64,000 nt of DNA from Perna viridis. Taxonomy: Eukaryota. Where the stretch lies: assembly GCA_037379345.1 (NCBI GenBank), contig CM074511.1:25713171-25777170 (forward strand), written 5' to 3'. Within the stretch, counting starts at the first letter, position 1. Every line of letters starts with the position of its first letter. Made by a program: the position numbers. Shown in pieces: positions 1 to 63,800 of the stretch.

Positions 1-3000
1 CTGGAACACTTTCCATTGGTCATTGGCAACCACCATACAACAGTAAAGTCATGTCAGCTCCACGCCCATTTAGTGGATACATTGACAATTTCTTGGTATG
101 GAAAATATCCTTGGAGCCAAATATTGTGACGGACATCTTTCAAATAGACCCACTAGATGTACAACACTTACTGAACCACCTTTGGCAATTCGATGAAGGT
201 CAAGGGTCTATTACATCTGACGTACTCAAAGGCAGCATCATAAACCTACCTTCATCACCATGGATACCACCAGAGTGGATTCCTTCAGATGTGTATTATG
301 TCAAAAATAATTATCCAGGTGTCACGTTCGTTAAATTCGACAGCTCAACAGTCAAAAAAGAAGCTGATAATCTTTGTAGCCAAGTAATGGACAATACTAT
401 ATCATCCTGTATTGGACTGGCAACTGCTACAAAACAAATATTTTACTCAGCTTGCCTTCAAGTGTACAGTACTACCAAAGATTCAGCAAATGCTTACAAT
501 GTTATCTTGAGCTATGGGCGCATTTGTAAGCTGTCTTTAGACCTTGCTTCTCCACCAACAAATAATTTATGTAGCAGTCTGCTCAGCAGTGAAAGTGAAA
601 ACAGCGGATGTACTAAGACGTGTTCATTTGGTGAAAAGCAAAACGACGGGTCATGTTCATGTACATCTGGGTATTTTGGCACGACCTGTTCGGGTATATG
701 TCCAGGAGGATCTGACACACCCTGTAACAATCATGGGAAATGTACAAGCTTGGGTCAGTGCGCTTGTAACTGGAATTGGAATGGTGATACCGAATGTGGA
801 ACATGTACAGGAGGTTTGATGGGACCAGATTGTAGAATTTTTTACCACGGCTCGTCATTTGGGACAAAAGCATACGTTACCGGCAAGGGTGATTACATGG
901 GTTTCAATGGCTATCAAATTTCTTTAGATGAGGCAACTGGAGTTTTTACAGTTTTCAATTCACCTTCCAATTTTGCAGTTGAAGTATTCCAAGTAAGCTG
1001 TATATATGGTACCTGCATAATAGGAGTGTCAATCAAAACTTCTTCAAACCAACTTGTTATCATGCCATCAGGACAGAATGATATGCCTCCATTTGTATAC
1101 AAGGATTTAGTCAAGATTGAATACGAGACCACTACAACGTTACCTGGCCTTAAAATGGAAATGAAGTCTTTCACAGAAATAGAAATTTCTGTTGGATCGA
1201 GTACCATCAAACTTTTGGTCCAGTACAATGGTATAGACATATCAATGGACATACTATCACCAGTGTGCTCCTCATCAACTGGAATTGTTGGAAATTGTGG
1301 CGGTACCAGCGAAACATACACTACATACAATCAAAACAACCTGATGCAGTACGTTACGAACACATATAGTTCGGCAGATGGACCAATAGTTCAAACAATG
1401 CTTGCAGTTTTTGGACGTAATGTAAGCCATGACTCCGGATTTGCTTTATCGTTCAATGAAACGTCGTCTTTGACAGATACACTTACATACAGACAAAACC
1501 ATACTCTGGACAGCAACAGTTTTAGTTTAAGCTTATACTTCAAACCTAAAACCGAGGGTGGAGTCCTACTAGCCTACAGTAAAAACATGACGTTTTCCAT
1601 ACTGAATAGAAATCCAATAATAATGCGATGCGGTACAAAGATCATAACGACTAATGTGACTACTCATCAAAATCAGTGGAACCAGATTGTCACAACATTC
1701 GACAGAACGAACAACAAAATCCATTTTTACCACTATGGACCAAATCTTACTATACGATATCAGATAATCGAAGACTTCTGTTCTGACTTATTTATAGAGG
1801 GAGGCAAAATATCGCTCGGAGAGTGGATACCATCAATCGATTCTGAGAAATATTCATACACAGAAACGTTTGACGGAGAAATAGAAGAAGTGTCAGTTTG
1901 GAAAGATCCAATACCCGCCCCTTTGATATTCCAAGCCGAAAGCCTAAATGTAAAATTGTCCGGTTTCCTAAAAAATGTAACATCTCTTTGGTCGTTCTCA
2001 GAGGGCGTTGGACACACTGCGTTTGACAACGTGATGGGCAACAAAATGAATTTACCTAGCCACCCATGGCAGACACCTCTTTGGGAAGTATCAGATAAAA
2101 CTTTGAAAGTTATCAACGAGGAAACAAGCCCAGACATTGAAACTCAGCAAGGTGCTCTAGATTTGTGCAACTCATTTTTCGACGCTGTGTCAGCTTCATG
2201 TAGCGGTATTTCACCGAATGGTAAGATCTGGTTCAAAAACCAGTGTATTTTGATAGGCAGCTCAACTACAAACATAAGTGATGTTGTTTCGGTAATGGTA
2301 ACATTCACAACGATATGCGATCTTGTTGGCGGGTTAAAGGACACATTATACAACAATATGTGTAGTCTGAACACTTCCATACCGTTCTGGGTTTCACAAG
2401 TCTGCAATAACTGTGGATATGGTTACAAAGGAGCAAATGGAGCGTGTGTCTGCTACTATGGTTTTTACGGAACAAACTGTGATAGTATATGTCCAAATGG
2501 AATTATTTCACCATGCAACAACCAGGGTGTTTGTGACACTAGCGGTATCTGTCAATGTGAAGGTCACTGGTCCGGATCAACATGTGACAGTTGCGAATCA
2601 GGATGGGAAGGGGAAGATTGTGTTGTCATGGCGACAGGACAATTTGCTAACCAGACGACACTTGTAGCTCAAGTGTCCACAAACGGACAAATGATATCAT
2701 TCGATGGGTTTGTCATCGATCTGACCCTCAAGAATGTTTACACCTTGTTTGGCCATTCAAATCAGATAATGTCAGTATATGGCCATGTATCAACGTGCAA
2801 CGATACGTTCCGTACGCATTATTGTTTAAGAGATCTAGTTCTTGACGTGAATGGAATTTTCTATTTCATAAGATCTTTGACAAGCTTTCAAAATAACAAA
2901 GTTGTAGTTTATACCAATTCAGATGAAATAACTATCTACGACAAATTCATTACAAGTGAAATTGAAATTTCGATCATCCAAACCAACACCATTTTATGCA

Positions 3001-60800: not shown

Positions 60801-63800
60801 AACTGCAAAATTGGAAGGTGAATCGAAAACTGTAAAAACTCCAGTTGCCTCATCTAAAGAAATTTGATAGCCATTGAAACCCATGTAATCACCCTTGCCG
60901 GTAACGTATGCTTTTGTCCCAAATGACGAGCCGTGGTAAAAAATTCTACAATCTGGTCCCATCAAACCTCCTGTACATGTTCCACATTCGGTATCACCAT
61001 TCCAATTCCAATTACAAGCGCACTGACCCAAGCTTGTACATTTCCCATGATTGTTACAAGGTGTGTCAGATCCTCCTGGACAAATACCCGAGCAAGTCGT
61101 GCCAAAATACCCAGACGTACATGAACATGACCCGTCGTTTTGCTTTTCACCAAATGAACACGTCTTAGTACATCCGCTGTTTTCACTTTCACTGCTGAGC
61201 AAACTGCTACATAAATTATTTGTTGGTGGAGAAGCAAGGTCTAAAGACAGCTGACAAATGCGCCCATAGCTCAAGATAACATTGTAAGCATTTGCTGAAT
61301 CTTTGGTAGTACTGTACACTTGAAGGCAAGCTGAGTAAAATATTTGTTTTGTAGCAGTTGTCAGTCCAATACAGGATGATATAGTATTGTCCATTACTTG
61401 GCTACAAAGATTATCAGCTTCTTTTTTGACTGTTGAGCTGCCGAATTTAACGAACGTGACACCTGGATAATTATTTTTGACATAATACACATCTGAAGGA
61501 ATCCACTCTGGTGGTATCCATGGTGATGAAGGTAGGTTTATGATGTTGCCTTCGAGTGCATCAGATGTAATAGACCCTTGACCTTCATCGAATTGCCAAA
61601 GGTTGTTCAGTAAGTGTTGTACATCTAGTGGGTCTATTTGAAAGATGTCCGTCACAATATTTGGCTCCAAGGATATTTTCCATACCAAGAAATTGTCAAT
61701 GTATCCACTAAATGGGCGTGGAGCTGACATGACTTTACCATTGTATGGTGGTTGCCAATGACCAATGGAAAGTGTTCCAGGATCGTTGAAAATATAAAGT
61801 GGTAATTCATAGCTTCTCCTTTCGATATATCCTACACTATTGAAGACATAGATATCAAAATCTCCAATTTCACCATAGTACATCACTATGACTTTGTTCC
61901 ATTCTCCTTCCTGAAGAGTGAGATTAGTTGAGTATGTCTGGCTTTCATATTCTATGTCAATTATTCCACTAGACACTTGGACAATGAAGAGCTTGGTGTT
62001 ACTGAAGGAAAACAGAACACCTCCATCATCAGACTTGTTGGCAATTTTAGTCAAAAATTCAAAGGTAATGTTAGGACCTACAGTTGTGTATAAGTCAACC
62101 TCTCCATATATTATAGATGAAGCAAAGTTCAAGCTGTATCCACCAACATTCTGTGTTTTGTAATAGATAAATGGGTAGTAGATGAACTCATCACAAGGTA
62201 CGACAACAAATCTTGACCATTCAAAAGAATATGGCAGAGACATGTTTTTGTTTGGTGAGATGCCGCTGATTTGCAATGTGTATGCCTGGTATGTTGATTG
62301 TGGAGTCTGTGTTGGTCCTGTGTATACACATACATTTGGAGAGAAAACTTCTTTGTACAGTAATGATTCGATTTTAAATGTTGAGTTGCTGACTCCTGAA
62401 CCTCCGAGTATTCCACTTGTGGTGCTGACATACTGATGACTCAATATAACTTCCATAACAAGGTATTGCCCTTGCAGCCTTACACCAACTTGAGCTTGGT
62501 CTTCAATCTTTATCTTCAATTCATCGATGTCAATCCTTTCTAAACTGAAACCCTTGAAGTACAATGGCTCATCAACTGTGGTTTCTTGGTCTTCAATGTA
62601 AACAATAGGTTTACTTGTTTTGAGTCTTGGAGTCTTGAATGTGATGGTTGAAAATCCTGCTGAAGTATCCCCAAGTCTCACCGATAAAAATGTGATGCAG
62701 GTATGGTTCTGATGACACGCTACTAGTTTTCCCTGAATGGCAATGACATCACTTATGGTAAGCAATGAATACACCGCTGGTTCTCTGACGATAAAGCTCA
62801 AACCATCCAAATTTGTCATGTGACCTAATTGACTTGCCAGGGCAATGGACTGATTACCAGCGATGGTGTTTTCTGCTACAGCACAGTCAGGTCCGATCCA
62901 GCCATCAGTACAGACAGAACAATCATCTGCACCTTTTCTGTTGAGTGGACAGTCACATGATCCTGTTTGATCACATGTTCCATATCCTGAGCATGGAGAG
63001 GCGGCTCCCCCGGGACATTCTGTGTCACATGTCGTATTCCAATATCCTTTGTTACAAACACATTCAGTGCCTCCATTTTTGGTTCCAAAATAGCAATGTG
63101 GATCACAGTGGTCCCCAAACACTGAGTTAAACGCAGCATCATTTGTCATTTCAGTACATAGTGACAGTCCTGGCCAGATGCTTAATTCAAGGATATATTG
63201 GCAATAGTCTGCATACTCCAAGATGGTATCTTCCAAGTCTTCAGGATCTTGCGCTTGTTCACATTCATACTTGTATTTCTGATTCAAACCACTTCCTGCT
63301 GGTGTACAGGTGCTGAAAATATAAGTAGTACAAATTTTAATCTTGTACAAATCCATCCATGCTAAACCCGACAGGGTAGTCAAGGACGTTAAAAAAACCC
63401 TTAGTACAGATTTTACAGGTTATGTACTTAATGTAAACATATGTCAGTCTTATTTGTTGGTTTGTAAGGTTGTTTAGAACTTTGTTTTGATTGCCATGTT
63501 TTCCATCTATAAATATTAAGAGAAAACAATGTAAAGGATCGAATTCTCTTAATTGGTTTTAAACATGTTTTGCCTATTACATTATATTGCTTTTCAATAA
63601 AAAAAATCCTTATCATTATTCTAGTACTCTCTACGTGGGAATTTTGACCTTGCTCCTAATATTATGTTGTCTCATAAAAATCAGTGTATACCGAAATGTT
63701 TTGTTCTTGATTACATAAATACAAATTCGAAAATGTTAATGCAGGTTCAATATCAAATGGTATACAAAATGTACAAAAAAAATCTAAATTATCAATCACT

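What the first reader, a model, noticed from the sequence alone, without database searches (positions are those of the whole stretch)
1..61780. Four-gene block bracketed by nested direct (1.33 kb) and inverted (>9.6 kb) repeats: a potentially flippable and excisable cassette
Seen: 11376-51448 (two LRR receptors, the ANK-ZU5-death gene, the ZAR1-like gene) is flanked on the inside by near-identical direct repeats (10038-11375 / 51449-52775) and on the outside by inverted copies of a giant receptor exon. Established: non-allelic homologous recombination between inverted repeats inverts the interval, and between direct repeats deletes or duplicates it. Inference: the locus could generate inversion, presence/absence and chimeric-receptor haplotypes.
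Basis: partly seen in the sequence, partly recalled or inferred. Interest (0 to 1): 0.72.

Follow-up and report, generated by a model that had tools for sequence, protein, structure and literature searches.

The report
Inverted gene duplication flanking four genes
A very large mussel-type membrane-protein gene is present twice, tail to tail, around a 40-kb block of four genes, and a short extra copy at one junction suggests a single copying accident made the structure; it is an ordinary kind of duplication, and whether it ever flips or drops out is untested.

Summary
The repeats are in the sequence at the stated coordinates. The inverted repeat is 1-9645 against 61780-52783. It is 98.7% identical, and the left arm carries 649 extra bases. 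The direct repeat is 10038-11375 against 51449-52775, 97.8% identical.

The outer end of the inverted repeat is only the window edge. The right copy of the gene runs on to 63419.

Each arm holds an intact single-exon open reading frame (LamG/EGF ectodomain, transmembrane segment, long tail) plus about 2 kb downstream. dN/dS between the copies is 0.35.

The non-coding part of the arms and the direct repeat are equally diverged: 18 of 1327 and 19 of 1327 mismatches. The right-hand direct repeat is joined to the inverted arm through only 7 bases.

My best reading is one replication-type template-switching event. It would have made an inverted duplication with a 41.8-kb single-copy spacer and a 1.3-kb templated insertion. 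This is inference.

A haplotype-related assembly error is not excluded, because the divergence lies in the allelic range of mussels. Against it, there is no gap, and the topology does not fit a simple two-haplotype mis-join.

Recombination between the repeats could invert or delete the block. That is generic, and nothing here shows it happens. This is an ordinary kind of structure and of low to moderate interest.

The parts
1..9645 (+). Left arm of the inverted repeat. It is cut by the window start and includes about 649 bases (8607-9255) that the right arm lacks.
3..7667 (+). Left copy of the giant single-exon open reading frame: 2554 codons, open at the window start, with the stop codon at 7665-7667.
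9646..10037 (.). 392 unique bases between the left arm and the left direct repeat. There is no other copy in the window.
10038..11375 (+). Left direct repeat (D1), 1338 bases. No Pfam family was found in its 5 open reading frames of at least 70 codons. It contains a 98-base imperfect hairpin at 10254-10351.
11402..11408 (+). A 7-base word identical to the junction filler at 52776-52782. It lies 27 bases past the end of D1.
11518..11662 (.). Near-perfect palindrome, the strongest short-range hairpin in the window apart from a (TA)n run. It lies 143 bases right of the D1 end.
13912..15777 (+). LRR transmembrane protein 1. The open reading frame is 621 codons and has LRRNT, LRR_8 repeats, a cysteine-rich cap, a transmembrane segment and a short tail.
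21112..23202 (+). LRR transmembrane protein 2. The open reading frame is 696 codons and is 30% identical to protein 1.
25549..39444 (-). Ankyrin-repeat plus death-domain gene. It gives 15 colinear tblastn pieces against a 925-residue Mytilus californianus protein.
47262..50047 (+). Gene with a 3CxxC zinc ribbon (ZAR1-like by recall). Exon 1 is 47262-48107 and a second exon lies within 49817-50047.
51449..52775 (+). Right direct repeat (D2), 1327 bases.
52776..52782 (.). 7-base filler between D2 and the right arm.
52783..61780 (-). Right arm of the inverted repeat, as far as the left arm is visible in the window.
54114..63419 (-). Right copy of the giant open reading frame: 3101 codons stop to stop. 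The start codon of the matching 3011-residue database protein is at 63149.

Best explanation
The locus is a real inverted segmental duplication in a bivalve related to Mytilus. A giant intronless gene for a type-I membrane protein, with about 2 kb of its downstream sequence, is present twice. The two copies point at each other across a single-copy spacer that holds four genes.

I propose that one replication-based repair event with serial template switches (of the MMBIR/FoSTeS or fold-back kind) made the right-hand block:
1. A broken or stalled end at 51448 first copied 1.3 kb from 10038 rightwards. This produced D2.
2. It came off its template close to a strong palindrome.
3. It picked up 7 bases.
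4. It re-primed in the opposite orientation at 9645, only 1.7 kb away.
5. It then copied leftwards through the whole gene. This produced the right arm.

Shown: the repeats, their junctions, their equal divergence, and two intact copies. Inferred: the single event, its direction and the mechanism.

As a consequence, the arms are a plausible substrate for inversion of the spacer by homologous recombination. The short direct repeat is a poorer substrate for deletion. Neither has been observed.
For: 1. Equal divergence. The non-coding part of the arms has 18 mismatches in 1327 aligned bases, and the direct repeat has 19 in 1327. This fits one age for both.

2. Nearby sources. The two source segments are neighbours on the left (arm end 9645, D1 start 10038). 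Their copies are fused on the right through 7 bases.

3. Local templates. Every base of the right-hand junction block has a template close by on the left. The 7-base filler recurs at 11402-11408, 27 bases beyond D1. There are 17 plus-strand occurrences of that word in 64 kb, so I estimate about a 1% chance of one in a 50-base span. This is a post hoc estimate. In contrast, the 392 bases at 9646-10037 and the 649-base extra segment on the left have no other copy in the window.

4. A hairpin at the switch point. The strongest non-microsatellite hairpin of the window (11518-11662) folds at -48.4 kcal/mol as single-stranded DNA, z = -14, and 0 of 200 shuffles fold as well. It lies 143 bases beyond the point where copying of D1 stopped.

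5. Precedent. Human inverted duplications carry a single-copy spacer of 766-70,466 bases. Of 21 sequenced junctions, 5 have insertions, 13 have short inverted microhomology of 2-8 bases and 3 have homologous LINE or SINE repeats (PMC3907307, passages read). The spacer here is 41.8 kb (9646-51448).

6. Both copies are intact. There are no stops or frameshifts in 7662 compared bases, and dN/dS is 0.35. The protein is conserved at 72-51% identity at about 3000 residues in four other database proteins.

7. No assembly gap. The window has no N. [quoted passage not shown]

8. Topology (my reasoning). The inner flanks of the two arms share D in opposite relative orientation and then run into opposite ends of the spacer. 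A single inversion or indel between two haplotypes cannot produce this.
Against: 1. Arm divergence is 1.2% over all aligned columns (110 mismatches in about 9000) and dS is 0.024. Both lie inside the allelic range of mussels, where mean heterozygosity is 1.73% in M. galloprovincialis (PMC7653742). Divergence therefore cannot separate paralogues from haplotypes.

2. A third, conspecific-looking protein (P0002, 3011 residues, source not shown) equals neither copy. It matches the left copy at 20 and the right copy at 30 of the 50 sites where the copies differ, in weakly clustered blocks (runs test P = 0.026). This fits allelic recombination as well as it fits gene conversion or a chimeric transcript assembly.

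3. No microhomology is visible at the 51448/51449 junction, and the D2/arm junction has a filler rather than microhomology.

4. The outer junction of the duplication is outside the window, so the event cannot be reconstructed in full.

5. The hairpin and filler arguments are post hoc.

6. Read depth and spanning reads could not be examined. No eukaryotic genome collection was available to test whether D is a dispersed repeat.
Confidence: 0.5

Rival explanations
1. Assembly artefact. The gene is single-copy, and the second arm is the other haplotype (or a chimeric read path) wrongly laid into the contig.
For: Arm divergence is 1.2-1.4%. This matches mussel heterozygosity of 1.73% (PMC7653742). 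That paper also reports removing 'artefactual duplicated haplotype blocks' during assembly.

The third sequence P0002 is intermediate between the two copies.
Against: There is no N in the 64 kb. [quoted passage not shown]

Two novel junctions are needed, at 51448/51449 and at 52775-52783. The relative orientation of D and of the spacer ends cannot be obtained from two haplotypes that differ by one inversion or indel (my reasoning).

The arms also differ by a 649-base indel, and their inner flanks differ (392 bases against 7).
Confidence: 0.25
2. Several independent events. D would be a mobile or dispersed repeat that sits by chance, or by target preference, at the inner ends of an older inverted duplication. 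Alternatively, a transposon-driven rearrangement joined them.
For: Other short dispersed repeats exist in the spacer: 45392-45625 against 50873-50640 at 94%, and 25956-26174 against 40527-40744 at 85%. There is also a reverse-transcriptase-like fragment at 43528-44004, which I recognise only by eye; Pfam is negative for it.
Against: D has no third copy in the window. It has no terminal inverted repeats. I saw no TG...CA ends and no matching target-site duplication when reading its ends. No Pfam family was found in its 5 open reading frames.

Its divergence equals that of the arms. Homology does not resume beyond D on either side.
Confidence: 0.15
3. A programmed invertible or excisable cassette driven by a dedicated recombinase.
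For: Only the geometry supports this: inverted repeats outside and direct repeats inside.
Against: No recombinase, integrase or transposase family was found in the 38 different open reading frames scanned with Pfam. That set includes every frame of at least 100 codons in 7600-54200 (listed) that is not antisense to a recognised coding region.

The repeats are kilobases long and diverged. They are not short, conserved recombination sites.
Confidence: 0.02

Closest known systems
Non-recurrent inverted duplications with a single-copy spacer (fold-back or template-switch origin; PMC3907307)
   Same: A direct copy, a unique spacer and an inverted copy. The spacer of 41.8 kb lies within the reported 766-70,466 bases. 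There is inserted sequence at the spacer/inversion junction, as in 5 of their 21 junctions.
   Different: Those cases are terminal, with a deletion or translocation, and are megabases long. This one is interstitial and at least 9-11 kb. It carries a 1.3-kb templated insertion, and its outer junction is unseen.
DUP-TRP/INV-DUP and related products of iterative template switching (PMC11293582; search listing and start of abstract only)
   Same: A complex product with an inverted copy and more than one junction, attributed to serial template switches.
   Different: No triplicated segment is visible here. Those events start from pre-existing inverted repeats, and there is no evidence for that here.
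Inverted segmental duplications that flank polymorphic inversions, such as the FLNA-EMD interval on human Xq28 (recalled; also named in the abstract of 10.1101/2020.04.20.051185, seen in the listing), and sex-chromosome palindromes (recalled)
   Same: Kilobase-scale inverted arms of high identity around a gene-bearing spacer of tens of kilobases. This is the geometry that allows inversion by homologous recombination.
   Different: Inversion polymorphism and arm-to-arm gene conversion are documented there. Here neither was tested. Arm identity is lower (98.7%), and I found no heterogeneity of divergence along the arm that would indicate conversion (chi-square P = 0.35).
Hemizygous presence/absence regions of the mussel pan-genome (PMC7653742)
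   Same: A mussel-type genome. The block holds LRR and death-domain genes, the sort of young, expanded, survival-related families reported as dispensable (abstract and passages).
   Different: Presence/absence of this block was not tested. That paper leaves the mechanism of presence/absence variation open.

Membership tests
Inverted segmental duplication (palindrome with spacer) | Two kilobase-scale copies in opposite orientation with high identity | tested here: met
   9645 and 8998 bases at 98.7% identity
Inverted segmental duplication (palindrome with spacer) | Unique sequence between the arms | tested here: met
   Positions 9646-52782 have no arm homology. The only internal long repeat is D1/D2.
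Inverted segmental duplication (palindrome with spacer) | Both copies present in one haploid genome (not two alleles) | not testable with these tools
   No reads and no second assembly were available. Divergence lies in the allelic range.
Fold-back or template-switch inverted duplication | Single-copy spacer of about 0.8-70 kb between the direct and inverted copies | tested here: met
   41.8 kb (9646-51448), or 43.1 kb counting D2 and the filler
Fold-back or template-switch inverted duplication | Microhomology or inserted or templated bases at the spacer/inversion junction | tested here: met
   A 1327-base copy of D1 plus a 7-base filler that recurs 27 bases past D1. No microhomology was seen.
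Fold-back or template-switch inverted duplication | Outer junction (return to the original template, or a terminal deletion) | not testable with these tools
   The left arm is cut by the window start.
LTR retrotransposon or other element with terminal direct repeats | TG...CA termini, a matching target-site duplication, and gag/pol between the repeats | tested here: not met
   The ends and flanks of D, read, show neither feature. The interior holds intron-containing host genes.
DNA transposon or composite transposon | Terminal inverted repeats and a transposase | tested here: not met
   No terminal inverted repeats on D or on the 392-base segment. No transposase family in the 38 open reading frames scanned.
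False (heterotype) duplication in an assembly | [quoted passage not shown] | tested here: inconclusive
   There is no N in the window. A read-depth gap cannot be examined.
False (heterotype) duplication in an assembly | Haploid-level read depth on both copies | not testable with these tools
   No reads were available.
Site-specific invertible or excisable cassette | A dedicated recombinase and short conserved recombination sites | tested here: not met
   No such family in the open reading frames scanned. The repeats are 1.3-9.6 kb long and 1-2% diverged.

The most novel reading that the evidence does not exclude
The structure is a segregating, recurrently rearranging locus. The arms would flip the four-gene block, and the direct repeats would delete or duplicate it, in natural mussel populations. 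That would make it a worked example of how presence/absence and orientation variants of immune-type genes (LRR, death domain) arise in the open pan-genome of mussels. The intermediate third sequence P0002 would then be a trace of exchange between the arms.
Probability: 0.1. Interest if true: 0.6.

Novelty: new member of a known kind. Interest (0 to 1): 0.3.

Why it matters
If the structure is real, it preserves both inner junctions of a young complex duplication, about 1.3% diverged, in an invertebrate. Germline template-switch events have mostly been described in humans and in cancers.

It also doubles a 3000-residue membrane-protein gene and brackets LRR and death-domain genes in a lineage known for massive gene presence/absence variation. 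It could therefore serve as a test locus for how such variation arises.

If it is an assembly error, it would be an example of a false gene gain that is not marked by a gap.

Tried and rejected
- Extended homology. I looked for homology beyond the ends of D and between the spacer ends with a sensitive BLAST (word size 7). Only low-complexity matches appeared.
- Further copies in the window of D, of the 392-base segment and of the 649-base segment: none.
- Rfam and tRNA scans of the window: 0 matches each.
- Pfam on the open reading frames of D: nothing.
- Pfam on single exons of the ankyrin/death gene. Three of the four ankyrin-like exons scanned gave Ank-family matches, and only one of them reached the curated cut-off. 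No ZU5 or death match came from single exons.
- PDB sequence search with the giant protein: 0 hits.
- Protein atlas search with the ZAR1-like exon: no usable hit. The homologue search with the same exon gave one unnamed 99% match only, so the ZAR1 label stays unconfirmed.
- Heterogeneity of divergence along the arms, as a sign of gene conversion: not significant (P = 0.35).
- Retrocopy origin of the second gene copy. I rejected this because there is no poly-A at the inner end of either arm.
- An LTR-like reading of D-spacer-D. I rejected this; see the membership test.
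Full report
**What is there.**
- Inverted repeat: 1-8609 pairs with 61780-53170 at 98.70%. After 649 bases present only on the left (about 8607-9255), 9252-9645 pairs with 53175-52783 at 98.73%.
- Direct repeat: 10038-11375 pairs with 51449-52775 at 97.76%. That is 19 mismatches plus indels of 9 and 2 bases.
- Left side: 392 unique bases (9646-10037) lie between the arm and the direct repeat.
- Right side: the direct repeat ends at 52775, seven bases follow, and the arm begins at 52783.

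**One correction matters.** The inverted repeat stops at position 1 only because the window stops there. The right-hand open reading frame continues to 63419, and the left one is open at the window start.

**What the arms are.** Each arm carries one very long uninterrupted reading frame plus about 2 kb downstream. The right copy is 3101 codons stop to stop. It has three Laminin_G_3 stretches, EGF-like modules, a hydrophobic transmembrane segment and a long low-complexity tail.

Four database proteins of 2971-3050 residues match it at 72, 64, 62 and 51% identity, and more distant ones follow. None carries a name. There is no sequence relative in the PDB.

Over the 7662 coding bases that both copies share in the window there are 92 differences, 50 of which change the residue. 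There are no stops and no indels. dN is 0.0086, dS is 0.0244 and dN/dS is 0.35. Both copies therefore look functional.

**What lies between.**
- Two single-exon LRR proteins (13912-15777 and 21112-23202). Each has a signal-like start, LRRNT, many LRRs, a cysteine-rich cap, a transmembrane segment and a short tail. They are 30% identical to each other.
- An ankyrin plus death-domain gene on the minus strand. Three exons give Pfam ankyrin-repeat matches, one of them above the curated cut-off. One 284-codon exon matches 'uncharacterized protein' entries of Mytilus californianus and M. galloprovincialis at 68-69% identity, and those proteins carry Pfam Death and ankyrin domains. The M. californianus protein maps to the window in 15 colinear pieces from 39444 down to 25549. 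No ZU5 domain was detected.
- A gene whose first exon (47262-48107) and a later exon (within 49817-50047) match complementary halves of the 3CxxC zinc-ribbon profile. Both matches are below the curated cut-off. Calling it ZAR1-like rests on that and on my recall of the ZAR1 motif. No named homologue was found.

Spliced genes were searched exon by exon only.

The named relatives place the window in a bivalve related to Mytilus. It is not human.

**How the structure most likely arose.** Three observations tie the two repeat pairs together.
- They are equally diverged. The non-coding part of the arms has 18 mismatches in 1327 aligned bases, and the direct repeat has 19 in 1327.
- Their sources are neighbours on the left, 392 bases apart. 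Their copies are fused on the right through seven bases.
- The right-hand junction block can be built entirely from templates close by on the left. These are D1, the arm, and the seven-base filler, which recurs at 11402-11408, 27 bases past D1. That word has 17 plus-strand occurrences in 64 kb. By contrast, the 392-base and 649-base left-specific segments have no source in the window.

The strongest hairpin in the window, other than a (TA)n run, lies 143 bases beyond the point where D1 stops being copied. It spans 11518-11662 and folds at -48.4 kcal/mol with z = -14.

I therefore propose one replication-type repair event with serial template switches:
1. An end at 51448 copies D1.
2. It falls off near the hairpin.
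3. It adds or copies seven bases.
4. It re-primes in reverse at 9645.
5. It copies the gene.

The product is an inverted duplication with a 41.8-kb single-copy spacer. This matches the class described in people, where spacers range from 766 to 70,466 bases. Of 21 sequenced junctions there, 5 have insertions, 13 have short inverted microhomology of 2-8 bases and 3 have homologous LINE or SINE repeats (PMC3907307, passages read).

The single event, its direction and the role of the hairpin are inference. The hairpin and filler arguments are post hoc.

**The main rival is an assembly error.** Arm divergence is 1.2% overall (110 mismatches in about 9000 columns). That lies within mussel heterozygosity of 1.73 ± 0.24% in M. 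galloprovincialis, and that paper mentions removing artefactual duplicated haplotype blocks (PMC7653742).

A third protein, P0002 (3011 residues, no source shown), equals neither copy. At the 50 sites where the copies differ it follows the left copy at 20 and the right copy at 30. It has 5 private changes. The blocks are weakly clustered (18 runs against 25 expected, P = 0.026).

I polarised the sites with four distant homologues. The counts of derived states were:

| Derived state | Sites |
|---|---|
| Right copy and P0002 | 12 |
| Left copy and P0002 | 10 |
| Left copy only | 13 |
| Right copy only | 4 |
| P0002 only | 4 |
| Unresolved | 12 |

The polarisation is noisy because the outgroups are only 51-72% identical. 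The pattern fits allelic recombination, exchange between paralogues, or a chimeric transcript assembly. It does not decide among them.

Two points argue against an artefact. [quoted passage not shown] The topology also resists a two-haplotype explanation. The two arms are followed by D in opposite relative orientation and then by opposite ends of the spacer, with no homology between those ends. One inversion or indel between haplotypes cannot give that.

**Other rivals.** D shows no sign of being a mobile element inside this window. It has no third copy, no terminal inverted repeats and no protein family, and I saw no LTR-type ends or target duplication when reading its ends. No eukaryotic genome was available to count copies elsewhere.

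A retrocopy origin is excluded, because neither arm has a poly-A at its inner end.

A programmed cassette has no support. No recombinase or transposase family was found among the 38 different open reading frames scanned.

The arms contain eight perfect tracts of at least 200 bases (506, 374, 327 and so on). The direct repeat has none longer than 171. Inversion by homologous recombination is therefore plausible, and deletion is less so. Divergence along the arms is not patchy (chi-square P = 0.35), so there is no sign of recent exchange between arms.

Whether the block varies in orientation or presence among animals cannot be judged from one sequence. The known hemizygous presence/absence variation of mussel genes (PMC7653742) makes the question reasonable, but it is not evidence for this locus.

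**Verdict.** The most informative content is the footprint of a single complex duplication. This is a new example of a known kind of structure.

**What stayed unchecked:** read support, copy number of D in the genome, the outer junction, synteny in relatives, and the supplementary files of the cited papers.

Noticed in passing
window 54114-63419 (-) and 3-7667 (+): A reading frame of about 3000 codons with no intron. It has four-fold EGF-like/LamG_3 modules (my reading of the translation), a transmembrane segment and a long disordered tail. It is conserved at 51-72% identity in four unnamed database proteins, but has no name, no PDB relative, and no Pfam match to most of its length.
   Followed up: partly
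P0002 compared with window 3-7667 and 54114-63149: A third, 99%-identical protein that is a patchwork of left-copy and right-copy residues with few private changes. It could be a third allele, a product of exchange between the arms, or a chimeric transcript assembly.
   Followed up: partly
window 11518-11662: A near-perfect palindrome of about 145 bases (possibly a miniature foldback element), just right of the left direct repeat. A weaker 98-base hairpin lies inside both direct repeats (10254-10351 and 51656-51753).
   Followed up: partly
window 45392-45625 and 50640-50873: A pair of 234-base inverted copies (94% identical) brackets the ZAR1-like gene. It is probably a dispersed short repeat.
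   Followed up: no
window 25956-26174 and 40527-40744; 46493-46886: An 85%-identical direct repeat pair sits at the two ends of the ankyrin/death gene. A 174-base tandem repeat (2.2 copies) lies upstream of the ZAR1-like gene.
   Followed up: no
window 43528-44004 (+): This open reading frame has a motif that looks like a reverse-transcriptase fragment by eye. Pfam is negative, so this is unconfirmed.
   Followed up: partly
window 8607-9255: A 649-base segment present only in the left arm, with a long T run and a 34-base tandem repeat. The flanks show an imperfect 6-7-base duplication, so it may be an insertion that arrived after the duplication.
   Followed up: partly
window 47880-47980: A glycine-rich run of about 30 codons (GGN repeats) lies in exon 1 of the ZAR1-like gene. 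It swamped the word-based homologue search.
   Followed up: no
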